From NCBI RefSeq assembly GCF_016026235.1, contig NZ_CP065613.1: a stretch of 64,000 nucleotides of DNA. One strand, written 5' to 3'. Source of the stretch: Escherichia coli (GTDB lineage: Bacteria > Pseudomonadota > Gammaproteobacteria > Enterobacterales > Enterobacteriaceae). Positions 1 to 60,849 of the stretch are shown here, piece by piece. A model generated the notes under the pieces. That model worked only from the letters and a program-made list of their open reading frames with translations, was not told where the DNA came from and made no database searches. Numbering within the stretch: the first letter of the stretch is position 1; the number at the start of each line of letters is the position of its first letter. The position numbers were made by a program, and so were the translations under genes.

Positions 1-342
1 TAACCGCCCACCGCCTGGCACTTCCCAGATAAATCGCAACGGTTCTGCTGCCGCTATACCGGAAAAGGCCACGGTGGTTCCGCTCTGCCCCTCTAATTCG
101 ACACAACGAGATTGCGAACACAAGCGAACCCGCAGTCCTGAAGGTGTCGGGCCGATAAGCTGATAACGCCACGCTACCAGCGTCATCAATCCTGAAGCAG
201 GTTGTCGCGTAGAAAGAGGCGCAGACGACATCGACTCACCGCGATGATTTAGCGTAATTCCTACACTACTTGCCTGCCACATCCCCTCCCCGGCGGCTTG
301 CACCAGCAGCGGAAACAATAATATTGCTAATAAGGTTCTCAT
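1..342 (-). CDS. flhE: FlhE flagellar protein, partial (C-terminal part runs off the window start)
   Basis: Minus-strand translation from ATG at 340-342 gives MRTLLAILLFPLLVQAAGEGMWQASSVGITLNHRGE..., matching FlhE; start overlaps flhA stop (ATGA-type overlap). Confidence 0.85.
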   Translation of the reverse strand, partial: MRTLLAILLFPLLVQAAGEGMWQASSVGITLNHRGESMSSAPLSTRQPASGLMTLVAWRYQLIGPTPSGLRVRLCSQSRCVELEGQSGTTVAFSGIAAAEPLRFIWEVPGGGRL

Positions 343-2420
343 TATTTGCCGCCAATTGTCGCCGTCATGCGGATATGTCGGTTATCAGACAGTTCCAGAT
401 TCGACAGGACCACTAACTGCGGCAAGCTGCGGCGCAGGAAGCGAGACAATAATGGTCGCAGCGCGTGGTTCACCAACAATACTGGCGGCGCACCCAGCAT
501 CTCCTGACGGGATAGCGCTTCCTGAGTTTGCGCCAGTAAACGATCCGCCAGCCCTGGCTCCAGTCCTCCCCCGCCCTGCAGCGCCTGTAGTAACAAACGT
601 TCCAGCGGTGTATCGAGGCCAATAACATGGACTTCATCTTTGCCAGGAAACCACTGCTGGGTAATCGCCCGTCCCAACGCCACGCGCACGACGGCGGTTA
701 ATTCATGTGGATCGCTTTGGATGGGCGCATGTTCCGCCAGCGTTTCGAGAATGGTGCGCATATCGCGAATCGGTACTTTTTCATCGAGGAGATTTTGCAG
801 CACTTTATGCAGTGTGGTGAGCGTGACGACGCCAGGAACGAGATCTTCCGTCAGCTTTGGCATCTCCTGGGCGACGCGATCCAACAGCTGTTGCGCCTCC
901 TGACGACCAAACAGCTCTGCGGCATGCTGGCTAATGAGGTGGTTAAGATGCGTTGCTACCACCGTGCTGGCCTCAACCACTGTGTACCCCTGAATCTGCG
1001 CCTGTTCTTTTAGCGCACTTTCAATCCAGATAGCATTCAGGCCAAATGCCGGATCGACGGTCGCCTCACCAGGTAACGTCCCGGCAGCGGTACCAGGGTT
1101 AATTGCCAGCCAGCGCCCCGGATAAGCATCACCACTGCCAATCTCTACGCCTTTCATCAAAATACGATAACGTGCCGGTTGCAGATCCATATTGTCGCGA
1201 ATGTGCACCACCGGCGGCAAGAAGCCCATTTCCTGAGCAAATTTCTTACGAATACTACGAATACGGCCCAGCAACTCGCCATCTTGTTGGAAATCAACCA
1301 TCGGGATCAGTCGATAACCCACTTCCATTCCCAGAGAATCTTCCAGTTGTACATCGTTCCACGTCGCTTCTACAACGGTATTATTCTCTGCCATTTTTAC
1401 CGGTTTGGGTTCGGCAGGCGCTTTTTGTTCGCGTCCGCGTATCCACCAGGCCAGCCCGAGCAATCCGGCAGTGAACAGCAAAAATACCAGGTTCGGCATT
1501 CCAGGCACCAGGCCGAGTAAACCGAGCACGGCGGCGCTTAACAACATAACGCTTGGGTTACTGAAAAGCTGATTCACCATCTGCTCGCCAACATCCTGAT
1601 CGGTGCTGACACGCGTAACGATGACCCCCGCGGCGGTAGAAATCACCAGCGCCGGAATTTGTGCCACCAGACCGTCGCCAATGGTCAATAGCGTATAACT
1701 TTCCGCCGCGTGTCCCATGCTCATGCCATGTTGCAGCACGCCGACCAGCAACCCGCCGACAACGTTAATGACCATGATGAGGATCCCGGCGATGGCATCG
1801 CCGCGAACAAACTTACTTGCCCCGTCCATTGAGCCGTAAAAATCGGCTTCCTGAGTGACTTCGGAGCGGCGTTTTTTCGCCTCATCTTCACCAATCAATC
1901 CGGCGTTAAGGTCGGCGTCAATCGCCATCTGCTTACCCGGCATACCATCGAGAACAAAGCGCGCACCCACTTCTGCGATACGCCCGGCACCTTTGGTAAT
2001 GACCATAAAGTTGATGATCACGAGAATGACAAACACCACGATACCGATAGCGAAATTGCCACCAACGAGGAAGTGACCGAACGCTTCGACCACCTTCCCT
2101 GCCGCCGCTGCGCCGGTATGCCCTTCCATCAAAATGATACGGGTTGAAGCCACGTTAAGTGCCAGACGCAACAGCGTGGTAAACAACAGAATGGTCGGAA
2201 ACGCAGCAAACTCGAGCGTGCGCTGGGTAAACATCGCCACCAGCAACACCATGATCGACAAGGCAATATTGAAGGTAAACAACAGGTCGAGTATGAATGC
2301 GGGCAGTGGCAGCACCATCATCGACAAGATCAACAGGATCAAAATCGGTCCGGCAAGGATCTGCCATTGTGTCGATTTCAGGTTTGCGGGCAGGCGCAGC
2401 ATCGCGGCCAGATTACTCAT
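342..2420 (-). CDS. flhA: Flagellar export apparatus protein FlhA (692 aa)
   Basis: ORF 342..2495 matches FlhA; the in-frame upstream extension is not used, start set at the conserved MSNLAAMLRLPANLKS (ATG at 2418-2420) overlapping the flhB 3' end. Confidence 0.95.
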   Translation of the reverse strand: MSNLAAMLRLPANLKSTQWQILAGPILILLILSMMVLPLPAFILDLLFTFNIALSIMVLLVAMFTQRTLEFAAFPTILLFTTLLRLALNVASTRIILMEGHTGAAAAGKVVEAFGHFLVGGNFAIGIVVFVILVIINFMVITKGAGRIAEVGARFVLDGMPGKQMAIDADLNAGLIGEDEAKKRRSEVTQEADFYGSMDGASKFVRGDAIAGILIMVINVVGGLLVGVLQHGMSMGHAAESYTLLTIGDGLVAQIPALVISTAAGVIVTRVSTDQDVGEQMVNQLFSNPSVMLLSAAVLGLLGLVPGMPNLVFLLFTAGLLGLAWWIRGREQKAPAEPKPVKMAENNTVVEATWNDVQLEDSLGMEVGYRLIPMVDFQQDGELLGRIRSIRKKFAQEMGFLPPVVHIRDNMDLQPARYRILMKGVEIGSGDAYPGRWLAINPGTAAGTLPGEATVDPAFGLNAIWIESALKEQAQIQGYTVVEASTVVATHLNHLISQHAAELFGRQEAQQLLDRVAQEMPKLTEDLVPGVVTLTTLHKVLQNLLDEKVPIRDMRTILETLAEHAPIQSDPHELTAVVRVALGRAITQQWFPGKDEVHVIGLDTPLERLLLQALQGGGGLEPGLADRLLAQTQEALSRQEMLGAPPVLLVNHALRPLLSRFLRRSLPQLVVLSNLELSDNRHIRMTATIGGK

Positions 2421-3561
2421 GGGTCGGTTTCTCGTTAATAAAATCCAGGGCTTCCGGCACCGGAAGATGAGTAGGTTGTACAGGGCGCTGTCCACCAGCC
2501 AGACGCCAGCGTTTCAGTTGCCAGACCTAGGCCAGCACTTCCGCCACCGCGGCGTACAGTTGACCCGGGATTTGTTGACCAATCTCCGCATGTCGATACA
2601 GCGCTCGCGCCAGCGGCGGCGCTTCAAGCGTCGGGACGTTATTTTCAGCGCCAATTTCACGAATGCGCAGCGCGACCAGCCCTGCACCTTTAGCGACCAC
2701 TTTCGGTGCGCTCATTTTGTTTTCGTCATACTGCAACGCTACCGAATAGTGGGTCGGGTTATTGACAATGACATCCGCTTTCGGCACATCGGCCATCATC
2801 CGACGCCGTGCAGCCGCTCGCTGCATCTGACGGATCCGCCCTTTAACATGGGGGTCGCCTTCGCTTTGTTTGAACTCATCACGAATATCCTGCCGCGACA
2901 TACGCAGCTTTTTCAGGTGGCTGAAGATTTGGAAAAAGACGTCAAATCCCACCATTGGAATGACACCAAGCACCACCAGCAGTGCGCATAGCCCTACCAG
3001 ATCCATCGCATTACCCATGGCGGTAATCGGAGACTCGGCCATTAAGCGCATCATCTGCGGCCAGTGATGCCAGAGAAAAAACCCCGTCACGCTGCCAACC
3101 AGGATGGTTTTCAAAATTGCTTTAAGTAACTCCGCGCCAGTCTGTGCCGAGAACATCCGTTTAATGCCCGGTAGCGGGTTGAGTTTGGAAAACTTCGGCT
3201 GCAAGGATTTGCCGCTAAATACCAGCCCTCCCAGCATGACCGGAGAAATGAGCGCCACCAGCACCACGCAGCTAATCAGCGGTAGCAGCGCCAGCATGGC
3301 TTCTCTGATCAGCAGAATAAACTGCCCGAGGATCAGATTCGGGTCATTGATAATACTGTGATCAAAATGCAGCCCAGCGGAGAGCATGCCCGACAATCGA
3401 CGGGCCAGGGACACACCGCCAAACCAGATAACACACACGCCCACCAGCAAAATCAGCAGTGAAGTCAGTTCACGGGAACGTGGGATTTGCCCCTCTTCCC
3501 GCGCTTTTTCTAGTCGGTGAGGTGTGGGGGCTTCTGTTTTGTCGTCGCTCTCGTCAGACAC
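2413..3561 (-). pseudogene. flhB: FlhB flagellar export switch protein with premature amber codon (TAG at 2527-2529); encodes 344 aa instead of ~382
   Basis: ORF 2527..3561 matches FlhB to ...AVAEVLA then TAG. The same frame continues after the stop (VWQLKRWRLAGGQRPVQPTHLPVPEALDFINEKPTHE*) to the expected stop overlapping the flhA start, so this is a point nonsense change, not the native end. Confidence 0.8.
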
Positions 3562-3796
3562 GTCGCCAATCCTGGAAAGAGTATTAAGCGTAAATGATGC
3601 CAGAGCGCAAAGCGTTCAATGGTTTGAGTAAGGGGCAAAACCGGCGGGATTTAGGACGTTTATGCAAAAATAGGTTCAGTTGCAGAACGTTTTGCGAACC
3701 ATTTTCCAGTTCTGATATTTAGCCATTTAGCCTATAGAATCGCCCACCGCCTCTCTGTTAGTTTGCTAATAATTAAATTATTACAAAGGTGATCAA

Positions 3797-5305
3797 ATGG
3801 AATGGCAACAATTGCTTAACTGCAACCGTCGGAAAGATAATCTAAAAAAAACCAACATAGCATTTTTACATCCCCTTGCTAGCGGAAGACAAGAGATCGA
3901 ACGGGATTACGACCGATTACTTTTTGCTGCGCCAACTCGTCGCCTTGCGGATAAAACACAAGTTTTCCCGTTAGATCAAAATGACAGCATACGGACGAGA
4001 CTGACTCATTCTCACGAAGTAGCAAACTTTGCTCGCGGAATAGGAATGAGACTCGCTTTCGAGATGAAGGAGCACATCTTTGGCGAAATACCCACGGGGA
4101 TTGTCGTTGAACGCGACGTTCCTGCTCTGTTAGCAGCGATCGGACTGGCACACGATCTCGGTAATCCACCATTTGGGCATCAAGGTGAAGCAGCGATGCG
4201 CGCATGGTTTAATAAAAATCTTCCAGGTCTTCTTGATAAAGAAGTAAACAGCGAAATATATAACGACTTTCTGCAATTTGATGGAAACTCACAAACCCTG
4301 CGCCTGGTTACCAAATTACAAATTATTAACGATAACTTTGGTCTGAATTTGACCTATGCCACGCTGGCTGCACTGATCAAATATCCCCGAGCTTCATATT
4401 CATCGGACAAACATTGGAAAAAGCACGGTTTTTTCTATTCTGAGCATGAGGTTGTCATGGATGTCTGGCAGCAAACGGGCCTTGGCGTACCAGGTAATGA
4501 TGCCGGTTGCCGCCACCCATTTACCTGGATAATGGAAGCTTGCGACGATATTGCCTACTCTGTGCTTGACGCAGAAGATACCATCAAGAAAGGATTTGCC
4601 TCATACCAGGATTTGCGTGATTTTTTGATGTCACAATCCGGGGCGAACGATGTAATTGAAAATGTTATTAAAGCTGTAGAGGCCAAAAATGACGCCTGGA
4701 AAGAGCAAAGAAATGCACTTTCACCGGCAGAAATTAATGAACTCAGTATGCAAATGTTCAGAGTGTATGCCACCAGTGCATTGATTAATGCCGTAGTAGA
4801 AGCCTTTCGCGAACAATTACCCACGCTGATGCAGCGTGACTGCCCGTTCAAAGATTTAATCTCGCAAAGCAAAGGTCACGCCCTCTGCACTGCCCTGAAA
4901 ATGTTCGACCGAACACGAGGCTACCTTCATCGTTCAGTCTTGCAACTGGAACTTAGGGGGTCTAATTACATTACTAACTTGATGGATATGCTCTGGATTG
5001 GCATCCATGGACACAAAACAAAGAAAGAACGAGACGGAGAACGCGAGTCCGCGTCTGCAGATAACCTTTTTGTTTCTCGTGAAGAATACCTGTCGGATAC
5101 TCCCTTTGGTCGCTATGCTTACGGGACAATATCTGAAAATTATCGCCGTGTGTTTGAAGATCCCGCCAATACACTCCCTGTTCTTTATAAAGAAGCGCAG
5201 TTGCTTACCGACGCAATCTCAGGCATGACGGATAGTTATTTAATGCGCCTTCACGATGAGCTAAAATCACTGTATGAATGTGGTCTCAAACACCCAACAG
5301 CTTGA
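3797..5305 (+). CDS. Dgt-family dGTP triphosphohydrolase-like HD-domain protein (502 aa)
   Basis: Motifs RTRLTHSHEVANF, LAHDLGNPPFGHQGE, FDGNSQTLRLV and FTWIMEACDDIAYSVLD align with conserved blocks of E. coli Dgt (recalled). RBS AAGGTGA 7 nt upstream of ATG. AT-rich relative to flanking che/flh genes. Confidence 0.8.
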   Translation: MEWQQLLNCNRRKDNLKKTNIAFLHPLASGRQEIERDYDRLLFAAPTRRLADKTQVFPLDQNDSIRTRLTHSHEVANFARGIGMRLAFEMKEHIFGEIPTGIVVERDVPALLAAIGLAHDLGNPPFGHQGEAAMRAWFNKNLPGLLDKEVNSEIYNDFLQFDGNSQTLRLVTKLQIINDNFGLNLTYATLAALIKYPRASYSSDKHWKKHGFFYSEHEVVMDVWQQTGLGVPGNDAGCRHPFTWIMEACDDIAYSVLDAEDTIKKGFASYQDLRDFLMSQSGANDVIENVIKAVEAKNDAWKEQRNALSPAEINELSMQMFRVYATSALINAVVEAFREQLPTLMQRDCPFKDLISQSKGHALCTALKMFDRTRGYLHRSVLQLELRGSNYITNLMDMLWIGIHGHKTKKERDGERESASADNLFVSREEYLSDTPFGRYAYGTISENYRRVFEDPANTLPVLYKEAQLLTDAISGMTDSYLMRLHDELKSLYECGLKHPTA

Positions 5306-6026
5306 ACAGCGTATCGCCGATTTTTTTACGCTTAGTGATGAGCATAAGAAAGCCAGAGTATTACTTGATACTCTGGCCTGTTCCTGTCCGGCCTGGATTT
5401 TTGGCGGGATGGTGCGTGACTTAGGCTTGTTTGGCGTCGAAGGATTCTCTTCAGACCTTGATATCGTCATCGGTCGCTCGCGTGAGGAACTCTTCCAGAC
5501 ATTGGCTGAACTGCCCGTCAAACAACTGCGTTTTAATAAGTTTGGTGGGATCCGTTTTCGTTATCACGACTTCGAATTTGATATCTGGAACCTCAATGAG
5601 ACATGGGCATTTCGGGAAAAACTTATATTTTGTGAGGATGAATCAAGTCTGTTAAACACTACGCTAATGAGTTGGGATGCCGTGCTCTATGATCTACGTA
5701 GTGAAAAAATTATCAGTAAAGATAATTATTTGACCGATTTAAATCGCAGACATCTTGAACTTGTTCTTCATACTAACCCCAATCCAAGCGGTTCGGTAAC
5801 GAAGATTTTACGCACTATTTTTACTAAGCAGGTAAAGAGTTTAGGGCCGGAACTCTGTCATTTCTTGCACCATGAACTGACGAAAAAACGTTATGAAGTA
5901 TGGCATCACTACGATGTACTGCACTACCAATCATCGTCATTTTCTCGTTCACAATTTAATGCATTGATAAATTTACTGGCGCAACAATCACGCTTCGCTG
6001 ATCTAAAATTATCAAACTACAAATAA
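5274..6026 (+). CDS. Minimal nucleotidyltransferase, CCA-adding enzyme / poly(A) polymerase head-domain type (250 aa)
   Basis: WIFGGMVRDLGLFGVEGFSSDLDIVIG matches the GGxVRDxLLG...DxD head motif of class II tRNA nucleotidyltransferases/PcnB. Start overlaps the upstream dGTPase-like ORF by 32 nt; exact start codon uncertain. Confidence 0.6.
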   Translation: MNVVSNTQQLEQRIADFFTLSDEHKKARVLLDTLACSCPAWIFGGMVRDLGLFGVEGFSSDLDIVIGRSREELFQTLAELPVKQLRFNKFGGIRFRYHDFEFDIWNLNETWAFREKLIFCEDESSLLNTTLMSWDAVLYDLRSEKIISKDNYLTDLNRRHLELVLHTNPNPSGSVTKILRTIFTKQVKSLGPELCHFLHHELTKKRYEVWHHYDVLHYQSSSFSRSQFNALINLLAQQSRFADLKLSNYK

Positions 6027-6113
6027 CCATCCTCCACGTACTCCCTGAACGAAACCCGCCACCCTGCTATCGGCCTGGCATCATCGCGCAGGCCGAAGTT
6101 CAGGCAATACAAA

Positions 6114-6758
6114 TCAAAATCCAAGACTATCCAACAAATCGTCCACCTGATCCTGACTGGCTACCACACCGGCTTTGCTGGTATCGACCTGAGGTCCATT
6201 AAGCAAACTCTGGTTTTCACGTTTTGGACGCGACTCCTGTTCCGGGATGTTTTCCAACAGCACCATCAGCAACTGGCGTTCGATCTCCTGAATGACATCC
6301 ATCATCCGCTTAATGACCTGCCCGGTGAGATCCTGAAAATCCTGCGCCATCATGATTTCCAGCAGTTGCGCGTTAGTAAAGCTGGTATGCGCGGGTACAT
6401 CTGCCAGAAATTGTCGTGTATCTGTTACCAGTTCACGGGCGTCGGCAAGGTCAATCGGATCGGCAAACCAGTCATCCCAACGTTGGGTTAACGCTTTTGC
6501 TGATTTCTCCATTTGATCCTGATGCGGTTGTGACGCCTCAACACTGTTCAGCGCCCGCTCCGCAGCCTGGGCGGTCATCTGCACAACATAGTACAAACGA
6601 TCGCGCGCATCGGGGATGGCTTCCGCCGCTTCGGCAATGGCCTGATCCAGCCCCAGTTCCCGCAAACTGTCGCGCAGCATACGCGTCAGGCTGCCGATGC
6701 GCGCAATGATATCGCCAGCTGAATGCTCGTCAGCAGGTTTGATTGATGGTTGCATCAT
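6114..6758 (-). CDS. cheZ: Chemotaxis phosphatase CheZ (214 aa)
   Basis: ORF matches CheZ from [18 protein letters not shown]; start placed at the ATGATG at 6753-6758 rather than the upstream in-frame ATG. Confidence 0.93.
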
Positions 6759-12443: not shown

Positions 12444-12470
12444 TTATCGGCAAGAAGGGGGGAAACTTTA
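12444..12470 (-). promoter_or_regulatory. Sigma-28 (FliA) class III promoter of tar-tap-cheRBYZ
   Basis: Minus strand reads TAAAGTTT-N11-GCCGATAA, a perfect FliA consensus, about 30 nt upstream of the tar ATG. Confidence 0.85.
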
Positions 12471-12498
12471 TTGCTGATGCCACCCGCCGCGAAATTGA

Positions 12499-12530
12499 AA
12501 TAAAAAACCCGATGCGCAGATCATCGGGTT
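12499..12530 (-). terminator. Rho-independent terminator after cheW (end of motAB-cheAW operon)
   Basis: GC-rich hairpin AACCCGATG...CATCGGGTT followed on the minus strand by a T-run. Confidence 0.7.
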
Positions 12531-12556
12531 CATTTCAATTGAGGAAATCGGGAGAA

Positions 12557-17528: not shown

Positions 17529-18285
17529 GGAAAGTCCCCACCATCGCATGTGCGATAAGCGCACCCAGCTCGGCGGCAGGACGATCGGCTGAACCTAACG
17601 CGTGAACGACCCCCATTACAGCCGCGACAATACCAAACGCCGGAAGTGAGTCCCCGACCAGCGCCAGACTGTTCGCCGGGACTTCTGCCTCGCTTTCGTG
17701 CGTCTCAATCTCTTCATCCATCAGGGCTTCGATTTCGAAGGTGTTCATATGACCGCTGATAATCAGACGCAGATAATCGACGATAAAATCAAGCATGACG
17801 CTATCCGCGAGGATGCGTGGGTAGCTGGCGAAGATCTCGCTCTCACGGGGATTTTCAATATCACGTTCCAGCGAAAACATCCCCATCTGCCGCGATTTCG
17901 CCATCAACCGATAAAGCAGAGCCAGCAGATCCATATACATTGCTTTGGTGTATTTGGAGCGACGAAACAGCAACGGCAGCGCTTTCAGCGTGCCTTTAAT
18001 CGCTTTGCCATTATTGCCGACGATAAACGACCCAATCCCTGCACCGGCAATAATCACCAGTTCAGCGGGTTGATAGAGTGCTCCAAGGCTTCCACCGGTC
18101 ATCAAATAACCGCCGAAAACTGTACCGAGAACAACCAGGTAACCTAATAAGATAAGCACGACATCATCCTTCCACTGTTGACCATGACAGGATGTTCAGT
18201 CGTCAGGCGTTAACGCGCGATTGGGGCAAAAAAAAGCAGCGGTACGTCGTTACCGCTGCTGGAATGTTGCGCCACACCGTATCAG

Positions 18286-18864
18286 TTAAACAGCCTGTAC
18301 TCTCTGTTCATCCAGCAGTTGTGGGATAATATCGGCAGGATTCTGGGAAAGTTTACGTCTTTTTACTGCCCGGGATGGCGGTTGACATAAGCTGCAGGCA
18401 AAGCTGCCAACAGGCTGGTGAGCGTGGGTAATAAAATTGCCGCCGCAGCAGTTGCAGCTGGAAAGTTGCAGTAATCCACTTTCAACAAACCGCACCAATG
18501 TCCAGGCACGGGTTAATGCCAGCAGTGGTCCTTCTTCTGCTTGTGGGCACTGTTCAAGGTATAAACGGTAGGCTTTGATCACCGCATCGACGCCATTACA
18601 CAAACCTGTTTTCAGTAAAAACTGCCATGCATTACAGAACATCGAAGCATGAACGTTTTGTTCCCAGGTCATAAACCAGTCGGTTGAGAATGGCAGCATG
18701 CCTTTCGGCGGTGGGCTTCCGCGCAGTTCTTTATAAAGTTTTATCAGGCGTCCGCGACTTAACTGTGTTTCGCTTTCCAGCATCTGCAAACGAGCGCCCA
18801 GGGTGATCAATTCCATTGCCAGCTGAATATCCCGCGCTTCCTGAACAATGCTTTTTTCACTCAT
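18286..18864 (-). CDS. flhC: Flagellar master regulator subunit FlhC (192 aa)
   Basis: Full-length match. Confidence 0.96.
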
Positions 18865-18866
18865 GA

Positions 18867-19217
18867 TCAGGCCCTTTTCTTGCGCAGCGCTTCTTCAGGC
18901 TGATTAACATCATTCAGCAAGCGTGTTGAGAGCATGATGCCGGTATGAATTTGCTGGAGATCGTCAACGCGGGAATCTTGCGTCAACTGAGTAATCGTCT
19001 GGTGGCTGTCAAAACGGAAGTGACAAACCAGTTGATTGGTTTCTGCCAGCTTAACCATTTGCGGAAGAGTCAGTGCCGCTAACGTTGTCGCCATTTCTTC
19101 ATTTATGCCGAGACGAAACATAGCGGACGCTTTGTCCTGAACAATCAAACGCTGTGCAAGTAGTAAATATGACAAGTTGATGTCATAAATGTGTTTCAGC
19201 AACTCGGAGGTATGCAT
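18867..19217 (-). CDS. flhD: Flagellar master regulator subunit FlhD
   Basis: Matches FlhD from [22 protein letters not shown]; the ORF has an in-frame upstream ATG at 19226 (MGIM...). Confidence 0.93.
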
Positions 19218-19996
19218 TATTCCCACCCAGAATAACCAACTTTATTTTTATGCGGTTTCACCGCACCCCGTGATGTCGCCGGGAAGCCCCAGTAAAAAAT
19301 AATTAGTATTAGAATAGTTGCGATAAGCTGCAATAAGCAGAACCACCTTTTTGGTTTAATATGTCCTTACAAATAGAAATGGGTCTTTACACTTATCTAA
19401 GATTTTTCCTAAATCGACGCAACTGTACTCGTCACTACACGCACATACAACGGAGGGGGGCTGCGATTTTCAATAATGTGTGATGCAGATCACACAAAAC
19501 ACTCAATTACTTAACATAAATGTATAAGTCATACTTTTGTTTTGGGTGTATTTCAATCTGTTAAAAAGTTTTTCGCTACGCTAGCAAGCAAAAATGAAAC
19601 AGGAATAATCGAAATGGGATGTTGCGCACAGTTAAAATAACTCACCGTAAATAATCATCTGCTATAAATAATCACTTTCATGCAATACCAGATAAGCTAT
19701 TTTTAAACAGACACTTACCGCACAACAAACTAATTAAATACAAAGAAAGGCAACAATCAACTTAATGTTAATGAAATGTTTTACATATATTAACCACTTG
19801 TTTAATGCGGAGAATCAGTACACTATTTTCTTATAATTACATTTGAAATTATATGATCACCGGGAGTGATTGATTAATTGTCTTTACTAATAATCAAACT
19901 AATATTTACCTGTTTGACCGAGTTGGGATTGCGTCGTTTCTCCATTAGGAGTAAAGCTTTAATGTCACCTGAAGTTCACAGAATAAGGAACAGGTT
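19218..19996. promoter_or_regulatory. flhDC upstream control region / uspC promoter region (AT-rich, long untranslated leader)
   Basis: ~780 bp AT-rich non-coding stretch between divergent flhD and uspC; no IS element present here. Individual binding sites not resolved by eye. Confidence 0.5.
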
Positions 19997-20425
19997 ATGA
20001 GCTATAGCAATATTCTTGTCGCTGTTGCGGTTACACCGGAAAGTCAGCAACTGCTGGCAAAAGCGGTATCTATCGCCAGGCCAGTAAAGGGACACATCAG
20101 TTTAATTACTCTCGCTTCCGACCCGGAAATGTACAATCAATTAGCCGCGCCGATGCTTGAAGATTTACGCAGCGTGATGCAAGAAGAAACGCAAAGCTTT
20201 CTTGATAAGTTAATTCAGGATGCGGGGTATCCCGTTGACAAGACGTTTATTGCCTACGGTGAGTTAAGCGAACATATTCTGGAAGTATGTCACAAACATC
20301 ATTTCGATTTGGTGATTTGCGGTAATCACAATCACAGTTTCTTTTCGCGAGCATCCTGCTCGGCGAAAAGAGTTATTGCCTCAAGTGAGGTCGATGTGCT
20401 GTTAGTTCCACTTACGGGAGATTAA
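19997..20425 (+). CDS. uspC: Universal stress protein C (142 aa)
   Basis: Full-length match MSYSNILVAVAVTPESQQLLAKAVSIARP... Confidence 0.93.
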   Translation: MSYSNILVAVAVTPESQQLLAKAVSIARPVKGHISLITLASDPEMYNQLAAPMLEDLRSVMQEETQSFLDKLIQDAGYPVDKTFIAYGELSEHILEVCHKHHFDLVICGNHNHSFFSRASCSAKRVIASSEVDVLLVPLTGD

Positions 20426-20431
20426 CCGCTC

Positions 20432-23787
<3,356 letters not shown>

Positions 23788-23798
23788 ACTCTCCTTAC

Positions 23799-25313
23799 TC
23801 AGGCAACAGCCTGGCTGACTTTAGGCATCGCAAGGCTCAGTGCCTGACGCTCATCTGCCTGCTCGTGTAACAATTCACCGGCGATTTCACCTTCCCGCAT
23901 CACCACAATCCGGTCGGCAACGCCGAGGACTTCAGGTAAGTCGCTGGAGGCAAACAGCACCGCCACACCCTGCGCCGCCAGCGCATAAATCACGTTGTAA
24001 ATTTCATGCTTAGCCCCAACATCAATGCCGCGCGTAGGTTCATCCAGCAAAATGACCTTCATCTCTTCCGATAACCAGCGGCCCAGAATGGCTTTTTGCT
24101 GATTTCCGCCTGAGAGATTCATGATCAGTTGCTCAGCGCCCGGCGTTTTGATGTTGAGCGAACGAATGTGCTGATCGGCATTGTTTTCTTCCCAACCGTT
24201 GTTGATTACACAACCGCCGAGCACATGTTTACGTCTGGCACTGATGTTGATATTGTCGCGAACGGAGTGCACGGGAATAATGCCTTCCGCTTTGCGATCT
24301 TCCGGGCAGAGCATCATGCCTGCGGCAATGGCGTGGCTCGGTTTACTAATATCGATCGGCTGTTGGTCGATATAAACCTGACCGGCGGTGATTTGCGTCC
24401 CGCCAAACAAGCCTTTCATTAATTCGCTACGCCCCGCCCCTACCAGACCAAACAGCCCAACAATTTCACCACTGCGAACCGCCAGACTTATTGGCGTACG
24501 CACGCCTGGTGCTTTCACAGCATCAAGACGCAGGCGCTCCTCGCCATAACTACGAGGTTGCCAGCCGTAGATATCGCCAATGTCGCGCCCGACCATCGCC
24601 TGCACCAGCGCGTCGTGGTCAACCTGCTGCATATCGGTAAAGGTTTTGACATAACGTCCATCTTTAAAGACAGTGATGGCATCGCTGAGGGCAAATATTT
24701 CTTCCATACGGTGAGAAACGTATAAGATCACCCGCCCCTCTTTTCGCAGTTCACGAATAACGCGGAAAAGATTGTCGATTTCGCGGGCAGAAAGGGAGCT
24801 GGTTGGCTCATCAAAGGCGATAATTTTAGCGTTACGCGCCAGCGCCTTGGCGATTTCAACCATCTGCCACTGACCAATGGAGAGATATTTCAGCGGCGTG
24901 TCCGGGTCAATATCCATACCAAGATGTTTAAGTTGTAAACCCGCCTCATAATTCAGCAATGAGCGATTCACAATGCCGCCTTTATGCGGCAGCTGGCCGA
25001 GATAGATGTTTTCCGCGACGGTCATTTCCGGCACGAGATGCAGTTCCTGGTAAATAATCGCCACACCCGCGTTAAGTGCTGCGGTCGTGTCGGAAAAGGA
25101 CATTTCCTGCCCATTAATCACTACAGAACCCGTGGTTGGCGCATAGTTGCCGCTGAGGATTTTTAAGAGAGTTGATTTTCCTGCGCCATTTTCACCCATC
25201 AACGCATGAACCTGACCGGCATAGCAGTCAAAACTAATATCCGTCAGCGCCTTAACGCAGGGAAACGTTTTACCGATGCCGCGAAATGAGAGATACGGGG
25301 TAGACTGTTGCAT
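23799..25313 (-). CDS. araG: L-arabinose ABC transporter ATP-binding protein AraG (504 aa)
   Basis: Matches AraG from [17 protein letters not shown]; two ABC cassettes (Walker [10 protein letters not shown] and GLVGAGRSE). Confidence 0.94.
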
Positions 25314-25382
25314 AACGTCTCCGTGAATCACTGGTCGTTCACACCCCCTCTGCATCATGCAGAGGGGAATTTTTCCGGCAAA

Positions 25383-26372
25383 TTACTTACCGCCTAAACC
25401 TTTTTTCTCCAGTTCTTCTTTAAAGTTGTCACGCGTGATCAGCACCACGTCGGTAACTTCGGTAAATTTTGGCGGTTCAACGTCTTTTGCTACCCAGTTG
25501 TAAAGCATTTCGCTGGATTTATAGCCATGTACGTCCGGGCTTGGCAGCAGGGAACCGTAGAAGCCGGTTGCCTGTGCTTTAGACAGTTCGCTCACCGCAT
25601 CCACACCGTTAATGCCAATGCCGATGATATCGGCAGCTTTAAAGCCCTGACCTTCCGTCGCGCGTACGCCGCCCAGCACGGTGCTGTCGTTCATACCGAC
25701 GATCAGCCAATGTTTAACTTCCGGATGTTGAACCAGCATTGAGTTGGCAGCGTCAAATGCCCCCGGGATGTCGTTAGATTTGGTAGGTACCTGATAAATT
25801 TGTTTTTCCGGGAATCCTGCAGCTTTCAGTGCGTCCATAGAACCCGTTGTACGGCGGCGGGCGGTATCCAGTTCGTTGGCGGTAATCGCCATCACCGCGC
25901 TTTCTTTGACATCCCAGCCACGTTTCTGCATCTCTTTATACAGTTCCTGGCCCTGACGTTCGCCAATTTTAGTCGCCGCCATCATCACCAGAGGAACGGT
26001 ATCCATTGGCTTACCTTTGGCGTTAACAAACTGGTCATCCACGGCAATGACTTTCATATCGTAGCCACGCGCTTTCGCGACGATGGCAGAGCCGAGTTTG
26101 GGGTCCGGAGTACAAATAACGAAACCTTTTGCGCCACTGGCAGCCAGGCTGTCGATCGCGTTCAATGTTTTTTCGCCATCCGGCACGGCAATCTTAATAA
26201 CCTCAAACCCTAAATCCTTCCCGGCTTTATCGGCAAACTTCCATTCGGTCTGGAACCACGGCTCTTCCGGTTGCTTCACCAGAAAACCGAGCTTCAGGTT
26301 CTCCGCCATAGCGGATTGTGACATAACGGCTGCCAGACCAATGGCTGCCAGGGCTTTAGTAAATTTGTGCAT
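25383..26372 (-). CDS. araF: L-arabinose-binding periplasmic protein AraF
   Basis: Matches AraF from MHKFTKALAAIGLAAVMSQSAMA (signal peptide). Confidence 0.94.
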   Translation of the reverse strand: MHKFTKALAAIGLAAVMSQSAMAENLKLGFLVKQPEEPWFQTEWKFADKAGKDLGFEVIKIAVPDGEKTLNAIDSLAASGAKGFVICTPDPKLGSAIVAKARGYDMKVIAVDDQFVNAKGKPMDTVPLVMMAATKIGERQGQELYKEMQKRGWDVKESAVMAITANELDTARRRTTGSMDALKAAGFPEKQIYQVPTKSNDIPGAFDAANSMLVQHPEVKHWLIVGMNDSTVLGGVRATEGQGFKAADIIGIGINGVDAVSELSKAQATGFYGSLLPSPDVHGYKSSEMLYNWVAKDVEPPKFTEVTDVVLITRDNFKEELEKKGLGGK

Positions 26373-27168
26373 GGTTCTCTCCAGCTTTAGTGTCGTTTTG
26401 TGTAGGGCAAAAACGAATGACATTCGTTAAATTAATCGGAAAACAAAGCATTACCTTTTAACTAAAAGATAAGTGACCGTGTTGACATAGTTTTAGCGAG
26501 AAATTAATTCTCCATAGGAGAGCAATATCACATCGCAGAATTACAGTGAGAACGTGCATAAATTTAGCGGGAAAAGACATAAGGGAAAGCCAATTTGTCA
26601 GACAAATTGTCGAATGCACAGCAGATTAATCCATAAGATTAGCCTGGAAATCCTTGTTGTCTTTGGTACCCATGCGGGATGTCTTCTTTTTAACCAGTCA
26701 ATAGGCCGCATTACCTGGCGTTGAGTTTTTGAAATGGTGTAATAACCGCAACTCAAAGATGTGGAAAATGCACGTCATTCATTTCGTCATTAATTATCAC
26801 TGTGCTCATTAATTAACATAACACGTATAATGAGAGCCATCTCGCAAAAATGAAAAAACGTTTTATAAAATCATCACTTCATCATGAATTCAAATTCATT
26901 GATTAATATCAACAAGATACAAAAAGCACTATCATTAAAATTCATTGCAGTTACATTGATTTCATCAATGAAATGTAAAAATATATAAACTTGATGATTT
27001 AAGCATTTTCTTATACCCGTTCAGACGTTATTCTTATTTCAGATCATCGTCAGAATTGACTCCACGATCACATTTCGGACCGGCAGAAAGGAATTATTCT
27101 GCAAACAGTAATTATGGTGTTTTGATTTATCTTGCACCTCTCCACTTCTGGATATAAGGATATTAGGT

Positions 27169-27672
27169 ATGGCAACCGCTGGAATGCTTCTCAAACTCAA
27201 CTCTCAAATGAACCGCGAGTTTTACGCATCCAATCTCTACCTTCACCTGAGTAACTGGTGTTCTGAACAGAGTCTGAACGGCACCGCCACTTTCCTTCGC
27301 GCCCAGGCACAGAGTAATGTGACCCAAATGATGCGCATGTTTAACTTTATGAAGAGTGTCGGCGCTACCCCCATCGTTAAAGCCATTGATGTTCCCAGTG
27401 AAAAACTGAACTCTCTGGAAGAACTGTTCCAAAAAACGATGGAAGAATACGAGCAACGTTCTAATACGTTGGCACAGTTAGCCGATGAAGCGAAAGAACT
27501 GAATGATGATTCAACCGTCAATTTCCTGCGCGATCTGGAAAAAGAACAGCAGCATGATGGTCTGTTGCTGCAAACCATTCTTGATGAAGTGCGCAGTGCG
27601 AAACTTGCGGGTATGTGCCCTGTGCAGACCGACCAACATGTTCTGAATGTCGTGTCACACCAGCTGCATTGA
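27169..27672 (+). CDS. ftnB: Ferritin-like protein FtnB (167 aa)
   Basis: Full-length match [40 protein letters not shown]... Confidence 0.92.
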
Positions 27673-27714
27673 TCATCATCGGCGCTAATGCATTGCGCCG
27701 ATGAAGGTTTTGAG

Positions 27715-27752
27715 AAACCGCTGCCTCATCTGTTTGAAGCAGCGGTTTTTTT
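27715..27752 (+). terminator. Rho-independent terminator downstream of ftnB
   Basis: Hairpin CCGCTGC...GCAGCGG followed by a run of 7 T. Confidence 0.7.
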
Positions 27753-28002
27753 AATGGGATTCACCCTGTGGGGTAAACTTGAGTTCAATAAGCGCGATGG
27801 CTTTTTGGATTGCCCGCATGGTGACCGGGTCTGCGGCGGCGGGATGGTTAGTAAAGTCGATATTCTTCAGCTGACTGGACATTTTTTCACGAACTTCAAC
27901 GGGCGCGATTACATCGAGAACATCCAGAATTTGTTTGATAACCAACTGGCAAGCAACCACATCAGAAACCAGTTCCTGATCGGCATTCAGCGGCTGGGAC
28001 AT
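27751..28002 (-). CDS. yecJ: DUF2766 family protein YecJ (83 aa)
   Basis: Full-length match [31 protein letters not shown]... Confidence 0.88.
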
Positions 28003-28088
28003 CGTAAACTCCTGATAGCATTTTGAAAGCCGTTATAGTAGCGGCTTCACATCTTCAGCGATAGTCACATCCACCGTCATCAGGACAC

Positions 28089-28116
28089 AAAAAAACCTGC
28101 CGGAGCAGGTTTTTTG
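28089..28116 (-). terminator. Rho-independent terminator downstream of azuC
   Basis: Hairpin CCTGC-CGGA-GCAGG flanked by A-run and T-run (bidirectional form). Confidence 0.65.
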
Positions 28117-28203
28117 TTATCGGAACATATTGCCTGGCGGTACGTCTTTGAACGTCTTGCAATAGTTATTGAACATACTTTTCAGGATTTTGCGCAGTTT
28201 CAT
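28117..28203 (-). CDS. azuC: Small membrane-associated protein AzuC (28 aa)
   Basis: Minus-strand translation ATG(28201-28203)...: MKLRKILKSMFNNYCKTFKDVPPGNMFR*. Not in the supplied ORF track (below its length cutoff). Confidence 0.85.
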   Translation of the reverse strand: MKLRKILKSMFNNYCKTFKDVPPGNMFR

Positions 28204-28465
28204 CGCGGCACTCCGACCATTTGTTATACAGGTGTTATTGTCTTTGCGCTTATAATATGACAACCATCACAAAAATCAATCTTTATGTGATACAAATCAC
28301 ATAAATACCCCTTTAATGTTATAAAAATGATAATCAAAAAACAGCCCCCCTATTTCTGACACCTACAGATGGCAAGAAATAGCGCCTGCCAGGCGTCTTT
28401 TCCGGCCATTGTCGCAGCGCTGTAACGCGTAAAATAGTGCTTTCTCTTACTCTTCTGGCTGGACC

Positions 28466-28789
28466 ATGAGACTTCTGATTCTGACTCTTTCATTAATAAC
28501 GCTGGCGGGGTGTACGGTTACTCGCCAAGCCCATGTGAGCGAAGTTGACGCGGCAACAGGTATTGTACGGTTGGTTTATGACCAGGCTTTTTTGCAGCAT
28601 GCCCATACCGATCGTTATGTCAGTCGCGGGATCGCCGATCGCGCATGCCAGCAGGAAGGCTATACCCACGCGATCCCCTTTGGTCAGCCAGTAGGCAACT
28701 GTAGCCTTTTTGCGGGTTCCTTATGTTTGAATACGGAATTCACTTTGTCATATCAGTGCCATCATTCCGCCTTCCCTGTCTTTCTCTAA
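28466..28789 (+). CDS. yecR: Lipoprotein YecR (107 aa)
   Basis: Match MRLLILTLSLITLAGCTVTRQAHVSEVDAATGIVRLVYDQAF...; lipobox LAGC. Confidence 0.9.
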   Translation: MRLLILTLSLITLAGCTVTRQAHVSEVDAATGIVRLVYDQAFLQHAHTDRYVSRGIADRACQQEGYTHAIPFGQPVGNCSLFAGSLCLNTEFTLSYQCHHSAFPVFL

Positions 28790-28959
28790 ATATTTTAATC
28801 AGCGAGGGGATCTTCGCTGATTAAATAAATAGCGGTAATGCGTTTTATTCCCATTCGTATTTTTAATAATTGAAGTTTATATTTTACCTTTTGCAAATAA
28901 TAAAATAACAAATTATAGTGACGCCACAGCAACAAATATAACCTTTGTGGAGCACTATC

Positions 28960-29457
28960 ATGCTGAAACCAGAAATGATTGAAAAACTTAATGAGCAGAT
29001 GAACCTGGAACTGTACTCTTCACTGCTTTATCAGCAAATGAGCGCCTGGTGCAGCTATCATACCTTCGAAGGTGCTGCCGCGTTCCTGCGCCGTCACGCC
29101 CAGGAAGAGATGACGCATATGCAGCGTCTGTTTGATTACCTGACTGATACCGGCAATTTACCGCGTATTAATACCGTTGAATCTCCGTTTGCTGAATATT
29201 CCTCACTTGATGAATTATTCCAGGAAACCTATAAACACGAACAATTAATCACCCAGAAAATTAACGAACTGGCTCATGCTGCAATGACCAATCAGGACTA
29301 CCCAACATTTAATTTCCTGCAATGGTATGTTTCTGAGCAGCATGAAGAAGAGAAACTGTTCAAATCGATTATTGATAAATTAAGCCTGGCAGGCAAAAGC
29401 GGCGAAGGTCTGTATTTTATCGACAAAGAACTCTCTACCCTCGACACACAAAACTAA
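28960..29457 (+). CDS. ftnA: Ferritin FtnA (165 aa)
   Basis: Matches FtnA from [55 protein letters not shown]. Confidence 0.94.
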
Positions 29458-29463
29458 TGCTCT

Positions 29464-29490
29464 CCGGCGGCAGGTTTACTGCCGCCGTTT
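29464..29490 (+). terminator. Rho-independent terminator downstream of ftnA
   Basis: Hairpin CGGCGGCAG-GTTTA-CTGCCGCCG followed by TTTC. Confidence 0.65.
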
Positions 29491-29494
29491 CAAA

Positions 29495-29734: not shown

Positions 29735-29924
29735 CGTCCCTCCTCAAAAAAAGCCTAGCGTAGCGATTGCCGCTTATGAAGACTTTGCGCCAGCGCAGGA
29801 CTGAATGCTTTTTATTGTACATTTATATTTACACCATATGTAACGTCGGTTTGACGAAGCAGCCGTTATGCCTTAACCTGCGCCGCAGATATCATTCATA
29901 AAGATCGTCAGGACAGAAGAAAGC

Positions 29925-60633: not shown

Positions 60634-60645
60634 TCGGGAAGAAAA

Positions 60646-60773: not shown

Positions 60774-60849
<76 letters not shown>

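What the first reader, a model, noticed from the sequence alone, without database searches (positions are those of the whole stretch)
3562..6113. Low-GC two-gene insertion between flhB and cheZ: dGTPase-like HD hydrolase plus CCA-type nucleotidyltransferase (candidate uncharacterised module)
The flhB start and cheZ stop are 2.55 kb apart here, against roughly 0.2 kb in the K-12 layout as I recall it. The insert is clearly AT-richer than the flanking flagellar genes and carries two co-directional genes with a 32 nt overlap. Gene 1 has the hallmark blocks of Dgt-family dGTPases (RTRLTHSHEV, HDLGNPPFGH, FDGNSQ, WIMEACDDIAYS). Gene 2 has the head motif of class II tRNA nucleotidyltransferases / poly(A) polymerase (GGMVRDLGLFG...SDLDIVIG). 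Stand-alone dGTPases are established anti-phage dNTP-depletion effectors, but I cannot place a dGTPase translationally coupled to a CCA-type NTase in any described system. The bacterial CCA-adding enzyme itself is a fusion of an NTase head and an HD domain, so a split HD/NTase pair could act on tRNA 3' ends or on nucleotides. Its position inside a sigma-28/FlhDC-controlled region is also unusual.
Basis: partly seen in the sequence, partly recalled or inferred. Interest (0 to 1): 0.85.

Follow-up and report, generated by a model that had tools for sequence, protein, structure and literature searches.

The report
Clover anti-phage system (CloA/CloB) copy

Summary
A 2,438-bp low-GC segment (window 3662-6099) lies between flhB and cheZ. 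These genes are 201 bp apart in K-12-like genomes and 2,552 bp apart here. The segment carries a 502-aa HD dGTPase and a 250-aa nucleotidyltransferase that overlap by 32 nt. It is present in 106 of 5,426 complete E. coli genomes.

The "uncharacterised" reading does not hold. Gene 1 is 66% identical to Salmonella CloA (PDB 9p8s-9p8v, E 3e-189). All catalytic, dGTP-contacting and dTTP-activator residues are conserved, as are 9 of 10 residues that bind the inhibitor p3diT. Gene 2 is a CloB homologue. It is 35-36% identical to the tested type, has an invariant D61/D63/D103 triad, and its confident model resembles class II CCA-adding enzymes. In all 29 related loci examined, CloB directly follows a CloA gene.

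This is therefore the Clover system of Yamaguchi et al. 2025. CloA is a dTTP-activated dGTPase, and CloB makes p3diT, which restrains it.

Two things remain open. This lineage has not itself been tested; the tested E. coli H5 copy lies in a selC island. Unlike that copy, this lineage has no mobility genes and holds the same flhB-cheZ position in several enterobacterial genera.

Novelty: already known. Interest is low.

The parts
3562..3661 (.). flhB-proximal intergenic DNA shared with K-12-like genomes. It presumably holds the flhB class-2 promoter and is not part of the strain-specific segment.
   Evidence: It is near-identical to the empty-site genome L002 up to about 3661. Blocks in it are conserved across genera. 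Promoter function is inferred, not tested.
3662..6099 (.). Strain-specific low-GC segment of 2,438 bp that carries cloA-cloB. It replaces about 100 bp of REP-like spacer found in K-12-like genomes.
   Evidence: Boundaries come from alignment to L002. GC is 0.44 against 0.53-0.55 in the flanks. It is present in 106 of 5,426 complete E. coli genomes. No terminal direct or inverted repeats were found.
3712..3740 (+). Candidate sigma-70 promoter for cloA (CTGATA-17-TAGAAT).
   Evidence: This is a consensus scan hit. The number of hits in the region was not above the shuffle expectation, so it is only a candidate.
3797..5305 (+). cloA: a 502-aa HD-domain dGTP triphosphohydrolase, the Clover effector.
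   Evidence: ORF. PDB 9p8s-9p8v (Salmonella CloA) match at E 2.8e-189, 66% identity. The equivalents of H69/H117/D118/D242, H126/E129, the dGTP contacts, 9/9 dTTP-site residues and 9/10 p3diT-site residues are conserved. PADLOC dGTPase E 1e-70. TIGR01353 scores above its cut-off.
5274..5305 (+). 32-nt overlap of the cloA 3' end with the cloB 5' end, suggesting translational coupling.
   Evidence: ORF coordinates. Overlaps of 26-50 nt recur at the called cloA/cloB genes of the other loci.
5274..6026 (+). cloB: a 250-aa Pol-beta-superfamily nucleotidyltransferase with a class II CCA-enzyme-like head. It is the predicted synthase of the inhibitory signal p3diT.
   Evidence: ORF. The family has 1,033 representative clusters. 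G44, G45, R48, D61, D63, G92, D103, W105 and W111 are invariant. It is 35-36% identical (E 1e-54 to 6e-57) to the CloB of E. coli H5 and Atlantibacter, which carries D71/D73. AF2 pLDDT is 95.9. The top Foldseek hits are CCA-adding enzymes.
6044..6104 (.). Stable hairpin in the 87-nt spacer between the convergent cloB and cheZ genes. It may be a transcript-end structure and has no U-tract.
   Evidence: The plus strand folds at -28.6 kcal/mol with z = -4.6, and the minus strand at -35.3 kcal/mol with z = -2.65. The terminator scan did not call it.

Best explanation
The segment encodes a Clover anti-phage defence system.

CloA (3797-5305) is a dGTP-specific triphosphohydrolase that is inactive by itself. 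CloB (5274-6026) is co-expressed from the overlapping downstream gene. It condenses thymidine nucleotides into p3diT (5'-triphosphothymidyl-3'5'-thymidine), which sits in an allosteric pocket at the CloA dimer interface and holds the enzyme off in uninfected cells.

When a phage that inflates the dNTP pool infects the cell (T5-like phages, through Dmp and NrdAB), rising dTTP binds an adjacent, mutually exclusive pocket. This completes the active site. CloA then depletes dGTP and phage DNA replication stalls.

What is shown and what is inferred: the mechanism was shown experimentally for the Salmonella SA20044414 and E. coli H5 systems. For this copy, homology and conservation of the ligand-contacting residues are shown here. 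The activities themselves are inferred.

This copy belongs to a diverged lineage. It is not on a mobile island and lies at the flhB-cheZ junction in several enterobacterial genera.
For: - The mechanism and the definition of the system come from PMC12265719.
- Window CloA matches the deposited SeCloA chains (8 chains per entry) at E 2.8e-189. It is 66% identical to SeCloA and 59% to E. coli H5 CloA.
- These CloA residues are conserved: metal ligands H71/H119/D120/D250, the dyad H128/E131, 8/8 dGTP contacts, 9/9 dTTP-pocket residues including the essential Y452 equivalent (Y481), and 9/10 p3diT-pocket residues including the three arginines and the base-reading D39, N77 and Q319.
- CloB keeps the D-x-D...D catalytic triad, which is invariant across 91 homologues. 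It aligns end to end with H5-type CloB, whose D-x-D is at 71/73 as in the paper, and it has a confident NTase fold.
- The cloA-then-cloB order holds in 29/29 loci, from Enterobacteriaceae to Photobacterium, Burkholderiales, Verrucomicrobia and Bacillota.
- The distribution is accessory (2% of E. coli genomes) and the GC is low.
- Both genes are intact here and in RefSeq.
Against: - No experiment exists for this lineage.
- CloB is only 35-36% identical to the tested enzymes, so its product is inferred, mainly from the conserved pocket in CloA.
- CloA differs from SeCloA at the octamer-contact residue H263 (Q271 here) and at switch residues Q427 (D455) and L174 (I177). It also has a charged loop insertion of about 20 aa (roughly residues 409-434) just before the C-terminal helical bundle that forms the dTTP pocket. 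Assembly state and activation threshold could therefore differ.
- The locus has no neighbouring defence genes, unlike the H5 and Atlantibacter copies.
Confidence: 0.85

Rival explanations
1. A Clover-like system with altered wiring. It would have the same two-enzyme architecture, but this lineage's CloB would make a different nucleotide signal. Alternatively, the system would be transcriptionally coupled to the flagellar regulon, through the shared divergent flhB promoter region or antisense read-through from the tar-cheZ operon, so that immunity tracks motility.
For: CloB is only 35-36% identical to tested CloBs. The flhB-cheZ or cheZ-adjacent position recurs in Escherichia, Enterobacter, Cronobacter, Pseudescherichia, Buttiauxella, Atlantibacter and Pluralibacter. 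No canonical terminator separates cheZ from cloB.
Against: The thymine-reading and triphosphate-binding residues of the p3diT pocket and the dTTP pocket are conserved in CloA, which argues for the same ligands. The paper found p3diT also with a distant Xanthomonas CloB. A strong hairpin sits between cloB and cheZ. Conserved position can be explained by descent alone.
Confidence: 0.08
2. The pair persists mainly as a selfish addiction module, with CloA as toxin and CloB as an enzyme-type antitoxin. It would give little present-day defence benefit in this lineage.
For: Inactivating CloB is highly toxic in the tested systems. This would stabilise the pair at a fixed chromosomal site with no mobility genes. 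Decayed copies exist: an IS-split cloA in L004, remnants in Buttiauxella izardii L030, and a split CloA match in Erwinia persicina L014.
Against: Both ORFs are intact, and all functional residues, including the phage-cue (dTTP) pocket, are conserved across genera. This implies selection on sensing and not only on toxin neutralisation. The tested homologues protect more than 10,000-fold.
Confidence: 0.04
3. A stand-alone anti-phage or housekeeping dGTPase that happens to lie next to an unrelated NTase acting on tRNA 3' ends (a split CCA-enzyme-like repair pair).
For: PADLOC's single-gene dGTPase model hits gene 1. CloB's nearest solved folds are CCA-adding or A-adding enzymes.
Against: Gene 1 falls below the NCBIfam cut-offs for both the anti-phage dGTPase (183 against 400 bits) and housekeeping Dgt (271 against 405). 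It matches CloA far better, at E 3e-189 against 2e-38 for E. coli Dgt. The pairing is invariant in 29/29 loci with overlapping genes. CloB has 250 aa against 342-517 aa for the CCA/PAP hits and covers only 28-41% of them by TM-score normalised to the target, so it has no room for the tRNA-binding body and tail.
Confidence: 0.03

Closest known systems
Clover defence system (CloA dGTPase + CloB NTase) of Salmonella enterica SA20044414 and E. coli H5 (Yamaguchi et al. 2025, PMC12265719; PDB 9p8s-9p8v)
   Same: It has the same two-gene, overlapping cloA-then-cloB operon. CloA is 59-66% identical to the tested proteins, with catalytic, substrate, dTTP-activator and p3diT-inhibitor residues conserved. 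CloB is homologous over its full length with the same D-x-D...D active site.
   Different: CloB is only 35-36% identical. CloA is 502 aa against 471 aa, with a charged loop insertion of about 20 aa and with H263 replaced by Q. The tested E. coli H5 copy sits in an integrase-bearing island at tRNA-Sec next to QueC-like and methylase genes, and occurs in 8 of 5,426 genomes. This copy has no mobility or defence neighbours and lies between flagellar operons. This lineage is experimentally untested.
Stand-alone anti-phage dGTPases (Tal et al. 2022; Shewanella SpdGTPase, PDB 9p8w; NCBIfam NF041026; PADLOC dGTPase)
   Same: It has an HD-domain dGTPase fold and defends by depleting dGTP. The PADLOC dGTPase model hits at E 1e-70.
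   Different: It matches 9p8w only at E 2e-24 over residues 31-202 and scores below the NF041026 cut-off. According to the paper, SpdGTPase is hexameric, constitutively active in vitro and has no NTase partner.
E. coli housekeeping Dgt (PDB 4x9e; NCBIfam NF003429)
   Same: It belongs to the same TIGR01353 dGTP triphosphohydrolase subfamily and has the same HD/HE chemistry.
   Different: It scores below the equivalog cut-off (271 against 405 bits) and matches at E 2e-38 only. It is an accessory gene present in 2% of genomes, not a core gene.
Class II CCA-adding / A-adding enzymes and bacterial poly(A) polymerase (Pfam PF01743)
   Same: It shares the GGxxRD...DxD head motif and the head fold. 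Foldseek gives E 3e-9 to 6e-5 with TM-score (normalised to the query) of 0.45-0.59, and the family profile hits T. maritima CCA enzyme at E 0.004.
   Different: The Pfam hit is sub-threshold (E 0.066). At 250 aa it lacks the tRNA-binding body and tail. In Clover the enzyme makes a free dinucleotide from dTTP and does not extend tRNA.
Other defence systems with inhibitory nucleotide signals (Hailong oligodeoxyadenylate; Panoptes/MISS 2'3'-c-di-AMP)
   Same: The logic is the same: a constitutively made nucleotide holds the effector off, and infection relieves the block (as discussed in PMC12265719).
   Different: The enzymes, signals and effectors differ. This comparison rests on the paper's discussion and was not tested here.

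Membership tests
Clover (CloA/CloB) | Two-gene operon with the dNTPase gene directly followed by the NTase gene on the same strand | tested here: met
   cloA is at 3797-5305 and cloB at 5274-6026, with a 32-nt overlap. The same order holds in 29/29 related loci.
Clover (CloA/CloB) | CloA HD-domain metal site (H69, H117, D118, D242) and HE catalytic dyad (H126, E129) | tested here: met
   The window equivalents H71, H119, D120, D250, H128 and E131 are all identical.
Clover (CloA/CloB) | CloA allosteric dTTP-activator pocket (R47, D61, Q172, K256, S418, N420, A444, T449, Y452) | tested here: met
   All 9 residues are identical in the window protein, and the pocket is conserved across the enterobacterial and betaproteobacterial homologues.
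Clover (CloA/CloB) | CloA p3diT-inhibitor pocket (T25, R29, R34, D37, R38, F41, N75, N181, Q311, R314) | tested here: met
   9 of 10 residues are identical. Only T25 differs (L27 here), and that position varies across the family.
Clover (CloA/CloB) | Close sequence relationship to experimentally characterised CloA | tested here: met
   E 2.8e-189 and 66% identity to PDB 9p8s; 59% identity to E. coli H5 CloA.
Clover (CloA/CloB) | CloB Pol-beta NTase active-site motif [D/E]h[D/E]...h[D/E]h | tested here: met
   D61-L-D63 and F-D103-I are invariant in 91 homologues. They align with D71/D73 of H5-type CloB. The NTase fold is confirmed.
Clover (CloA/CloB) | Octameric 'four-leaf clover' assembly of CloA | not testable with these tools
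   No multimer prediction was run. The contact residue R46 is conserved, but H263 is Q271 here and a loop insertion of about 20 aa precedes the C-terminal bundle.
Clover (CloA/CloB) | dGTP-specific hydrolysis that requires dTTP and is inhibited by p3diT; CloB synthesises p3diT | not testable with these tools
   This is biochemistry, shown only for the Salmonella, E. coli H5 and Xanthomonas proteins.
Clover (CloA/CloB) | Protection against T5-like phages; toxicity when CloB is inactivated | not testable with these tools
   This is a phenotype, shown for the Salmonella and E. coli H5 operons.
Stand-alone anti-phage dGTPase (NCBIfam NF041026 / NF003701) | Score at or above the curated whole-protein cut-off | tested here: not met
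   183 bits against a cut-off of 400, and 152.9 against 383. The PADLOC dGTPase model does hit at E 1e-70.
Housekeeping Dgt (NCBIfam NF003429; also NF002205) | Score at or above the curated equivalog cut-off | tested here: not met
   271 bits against 405, and 358 against 439. Only the broad subfamily TIGR01353 passes, at 284.7 against 152.
Class II CCA-adding enzyme / poly(A) polymerase (PF01743) | Significant match to the PolyA_pol head domain profile | tested here: inconclusive
   Pfam E 0.066 for a single sequence. The family profile against PDB CCA enzymes gives E 0.0036 over motif A only. Fold similarity is strong.
Class II CCA-adding enzyme / poly(A) polymerase (PF01743) | C-terminal body and tail domains that hold the tRNA or RNA primer | tested here: not met
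   CloB has 250 aa against 342-517 aa for the matched enzymes. TM-score normalised to the target is only 0.28-0.41.

The most novel reading that the evidence does not exclude
The flhB-cheZ Clover lineage may be an anciently resident, mostly vertically inherited immune module of Enterobacteriaceae and not island cargo. Its fixed place between a class-2 (flhBAE) and a class-3 (tar-cheZ) flagellar operon may couple its expression to motility. Alternatively, its diverged CloB may make a signal other than p3diT. Either would show that a nucleotide-sensing defence can be wired into a core regulon.
Probability: 0.1. Interest if true: 0.5.

Novelty: already known. Interest (0 to 1): 0.22.

Why it matters
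The main value is corrective. A module flagged as uncharacterised can be annotated as cloA/cloB, where RefSeq currently has 'dgt' and 'hypothetical protein'. PADLOC-DB v2.0.0 matches only the dGTPase half. The NTase matches nothing in PADLOC or NCBIfam and is sub-threshold in Pfam (E 0.066).

Clover itself matters because it shows that immunity can sense a metabolite (dTTP) and be restrained by a self-made nucleotide.

Two points are added here. E. coli has two distinct Clover lineages: a selC-island type in 8 of 5,426 genomes, which was the one tested, and this flhB-cheZ type in 106 of 5,426, which is untested. The second type also keeps its chromosomal position across several genera without any mobility genes, which is unusual for a defence system and could be followed up cheaply.

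Tried and rejected
- CloB in annotation libraries: PADLOC and NCBIfam gave no hit. A single-sequence phmmer search against the PDB also gave nothing, even at E 10. The fold had to be established by structure prediction.
I re-ran it with a narrower enterobacterial alignment, so the census is biased towards close relatives.
- Supplementary Table 1 of the Clover paper (CloB homologue list) is not held as text. I could not verify that this exact protein (WP_050428686.1) is listed.
- Nicastro et al. 2023, the earlier computational description of the pair, is not held.
- Mobile-element signatures: only short chance-level repeats flank the segment, with no target-site duplication or terminal inverted repeats. 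No integrase or transposase is adjacent. I rejected the idea of a transposon or integrative island.
- Promoter and terminator scans were not above the shuffle expectation, so the cloA promoter is only a candidate.
- Rfam found nothing in the region.
- Is the window's system the tested 'E. coli H5' Clover? No. The H5 operon is 2,200 bp, lies at selC, and its CloB is 35% identical to this one.
- Literature search for flhB-cheZ as a known defence hotspot found nothing relevant in the held library.
Full report
**1. Observation**

The ORF map shows flhA (342-2420, minus strand) and flhB (start 3561, minus strand). Two plus-strand ORFs follow, at 3797-5305 (502 aa) and 5274-6026 (250 aa), and they overlap by 32 nt. 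Next come cheZ (6114-6758, minus strand), cheY, cheB and cheR.

The flhB-cheZ gap is 2,552 bp here. In a K-12-like genome (L002) it is 201 bp.

GC falls to 0.38-0.48 across the gap, against 0.52-0.59 in the flanks. Measured exactly, the strain-specific segment has GC 0.44 and GC3 0.41-0.42, while flhA/flhB/cheZ/cheB have GC3 0.57-0.61.

Alignment with the empty site places the segment at about 3662-6099. The first 100 bp upstream of flhB and the last 14 bp before the cheZ stop are shared with K-12-like genomes. Where the segment lies, the K-12-like genome has about 100 bp of REP-like sequence instead.

No terminal direct or inverted repeats were found, and no integrase or transposase is adjacent.

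In RefSeq complete E. coli genomes, 106 of 5,426 carry the segment, always on the chromosome and at 98-100% identity. The other sampled genomes have the short spacer, so the site is either empty or holds this one cargo.

The window is 100% identical over 3400-6300 to strain FDAARGOS_943. There, PGAP annotates 'dgt: dGTP triphosphohydrolase' (WP_038338857.1) and 'hypothetical protein' (WP_050428686.1).

**2. What the genes are**

*Gene 1.* It hits the PADLOC dGTPase model at E 1e-70. It passes the broad NCBIfam subfamily TIGR01353. It falls below the curated cut-offs for housekeeping Dgt (271 against 405 bits; 358 against 439) and for the stand-alone anti-phage dGTPase (183 against 400). Pfam sees only a weak HD hit.

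Against solved structures, the best matches by far are PDB 9p8s, 9p8t, 9p8u and 9p8v ('DNTP triphosphohydrolase', 473 residues, eight chains per entry) at E about 3e-189. E. coli Dgt (4x9e) matches at 2e-38 and 9p8w at 2e-24.

*Gene 2.* It has no PADLOC or NCBIfam hit, a sub-threshold Pfam PolyA_pol hit (E 0.066), and no single-sequence PDB hit. It nevertheless belongs to a large family, with 1,033 representative clusters at E<=0.001. Across 91 homologues G44, G45, R48, D61, D63, G92, D103, W105 and W111 are invariant.

An AlphaFold2 model built on that alignment is very confident (pLDDT 95.9, pTM 0.91). Its top 46 Foldseek PDB matches are all class II CCA-adding or A-adding enzymes or bacterial poly(A) polymerase. 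E-values run from 3e-9 to 6e-5, and TM-scores normalised to the query are 0.45-0.59. The family profile also hits the T. maritima CCA enzyme at E 0.004 over the GGxxRD...DxD motif.

At 250 aa, however, the protein is too short for the tRNA-binding body and tail.

**3. Identification as Clover**

A full-text search found Yamaguchi et al., bioRxiv 2025 (PMC12265719). The paper defines 'Clover', a two-gene defence system made of a dNTPase (CloA) and an NTase (CloB).

The paper reports the following:
- Operons from Salmonella enterica SA20044414 and E. coli H5 protect more than 10,000-fold against T5-like phages.
- HD-motif mutations abolish defence, and CloB active-site mutations are toxic.
- CloA is an octamer. 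It is inactive alone, is activated specifically by dTTP and hydrolyses only dGTP.
- Escape phages carry mutations in Dmp or NrdAB, which raise dNTP levels.
- CloB makes p3diT. This binds an allosteric pocket at the CloA dimer interface, inhibits with an IC50 of about 7.6 uM, and raises the dTTP threshold for activation.

The deposited structures are the PDB entries hit above. The preprint prints '8P9S-8P9V' alongside 9P8W. The chain length, the eight chains per entry and the residue numbering all fit 9p8s-9p8v.

**4. Residue-level membership test**

I rebuilt SeCloA residues 1-468 from the printed alignment. The paper's numbering matched at every named residue checked except 'Q377', which is E in the sequence.

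The window protein is 66% identical over 464 aligned positions. Conservation by residue class is as follows:

| Residue class | SeCloA residues | Window residues | Conserved |
|---|---|---|---|
| Metal ligands | H69, H117, D118, D242 | H71, H119, D120, D250 | 4/4 |
| HE dyad | H126, E129 | H128, E131 | 2/2 |
| dGTP contacts | eight residues listed in the paper | identical | 8/8 |
| dTTP pocket | R47, D61, Q172, K256, S418, N420, A444, T449, Y452 | identical (Y452 is Y481) | 9/9 |
| p3diT pocket | T25, R29, R34, D37, R38, F41, N75, N181, Q311, R314 | only T25 differs (L27) | 9/10 |

The differences lie outside these sites. L174 is I177, Q427 is D455, and the octamer-contact residue H263 is Q271. 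There is also a charged loop insertion of about 20 aa at roughly residues 409-434.

The same pattern holds across 22 further CloA homologues taken from loci next to CloB.

The tested type of CloB has its D-x-D at 71/73. The Atlantibacter (L008) and E. coli H5 (L033) proteins have exactly that, and the window CloB aligns to them over its full length at 35-36% identity (E 1e-54 to 6e-57), with its own D-x-D at 61/63.

**5. Co-occurrence and context elsewhere**

In every locus recovered through CloB, a CloA homologue lies immediately upstream on the same strand. This covers 9 loci from exact-protein look-ups and 20 species-representative genomes. The called genes overlap in the look-up loci; the genome-scan loci were examined by tblastn only. 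The loci include Photobacterium, Pseudacidovorax, Rhizobacter, Limnohabitans, a Verrucomicrobia MAG and a Bacillota MAG.

The tested E. coli H5 operon is a different lineage. It is 2,200 bp long, sits in an integrase-bearing island at tRNA-Sec beside QueC-like, PfkB-like, glycosylase and methylase genes, and occurs in 8 of 5,426 genomes. The Atlantibacter copy of that lineage lies among type I R-M and DarTG genes.

The window's lineage, by contrast, lies between flhB and cheZ in these taxa:
- E. coli
- Enterobacter hormaechei and E. quasihormaechei
- Cronobacter
- Pseudescherichia vulneris
- 'Escherichia sp. ESNIH1'
- an Enterobacteriaceae MAG
- an unidentified Logan contig (L010)
- Buttiauxella, where the B. 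izardii copy is decayed

It lies next to cheZ in Atlantibacter subterranea and A. hermannii, Pluralibacter gergoviae and a JGI metagenome contig (L003).

Between genera, CloA (63-72%) and CloB (43-58%) are far more diverged than FlhA (89-96%), FlhB (72-84%) and CheZ (79-91%). Pairwise divergences broadly track the flanks (Pearson 0.80 and 0.89; the pairs are not independent, so this is descriptive only). The window-L010 pair is an exception. Its Clo proteins (80% and 73%) are closer than its flanks predict, which suggests some allelic exchange.

This pattern fits long residence at the site with frequent loss, possibly helped by recombination through the conserved flanks. It does not fit a generic integration hotspot.

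**6. Local regulatory features (weak evidence)**

- One sigma-70-like site (3712-3740, plus strand) lies upstream of cloA, but hits in the region were not above the shuffle expectation.
- The flhB-proximal 100 bp is shared with K-12 and partly conserved across genera.
- The 87-nt cloB-cheZ spacer folds into a stable hairpin (-28.6 kcal/mol, z = -4.6) without a U-tract.
- No Rfam family matches in the region.

**7. Verdict**

Best explanation (confidence 0.85): this is a functional Clover system that works as published. CloA is a dGTPase activated by dTTP, and CloB makes p3diT to restrain it.

What is shown here is homology, conservation of the ligand-contacting residues, the fold, the operon architecture and the distribution. 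Enzyme activities, the identity of the signal, the oligomeric state and the phage range are inferred for this lineage.

Novelty: already known as a kind. This copy is an untested, diverged member with an unusual syntenic, non-mobile location. Interest is low, at about 0.2.

Noticed in passing
window 2527-2529 (flhB, minus strand, codon 345): flhB carries an in-frame stop (W345*). FlhB is therefore truncated to 344 aa from the normal 382 aa. The otherwise identical strain FDAARGOS_943 has Trp at this codon. That strain instead has a frameshifted cheZ, which is intact in the window. This may point to independent loss of motility functions in close relatives.
   Followed up: partly
L005, L006, L007, L010, L016-L019, L024, L030 (flhB-cloAB-cheZ); L003, L020-L022 (cloAB-cheZ): The cloAB pair occupies the same flhB-cheZ or cheZ-adjacent position in at least seven enterobacterial genera. 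Clo protein divergence is much larger than that of the flanking flagellar genes, and there are no mobility genes. I found no mention of this in the held literature.
   Followed up: partly
L033 (E. coli H5, NZ_CP010169.1 1122857-1125056) and L008/L009 (Atlantibacter hermannii): A second Clover lineage is the one that was experimentally tested. It lies in a tRNA-Sec (selC) integrase island next to PfkB/QueC-like, glycosylase and Dam-like methylase genes. It occurs in only 8 of 5,426 complete E. coli genomes.
   Followed up: yes
L004 3365-6038; L030 5740-6533; L014 4796-5996: Some Clover copies at related loci are decayed. An IS3-family element splits cloA in an Enterobacter genome. Only remnants of cloA and a broken cloB remain in Buttiauxella izardii. 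The CloA match is split into two segments in Erwinia persicina NBRC 102418.
   Followed up: no
window 49688-57569 and 60550-60849: The far end of the window looks like a separate genomic island. It holds type I R-M hsdS (49688-50914, minus strand) and hsdM (50904-52427, minus strand). Two large ORFs of unknown function follow at 52731-53966 and 54369-55499 in a region of GC about 0.35-0.39. Then come a tyrosine-integrase-like ORF (55643-56779), an IS1 InsB-like ORF (57066-57569) and three tRNA genes. These assignments were read from the translations and not searched.
   Followed up: no
window 18000-21000, 25000-30000, 34000-41000: These are further stretches of GC at or below about 0.45 within the window. 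They were not examined.
   Followed up: no
window 12460-12537 (+): Rfam matches the C0465 sRNA here at 111.6 bits. This is an ordinary E. coli feature.
   Followed up: no
L002 about 1762-1860 (K-12-like empty site): In genomes that lack cloAB, the corresponding spacer holds a REP-like palindromic element (...GTCGGATGCGGCGTCATCGCCTTATCAGACCGCCTGATATGACG...). The two states of the locus therefore differ by replacement and not by a clean insertion. I recognised the REP element from memory and did not test it.
   Followed up: no
PMC12265719, data availability statement and text: The preprint lists the CloA coordinates as 8P9S-8P9V, whereas the matching PDB entries are 9p8s-9p8v. It also names a dGTP contact 'Q377', where the deposited sequence as reconstructed has E377.
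   Followed up: partly
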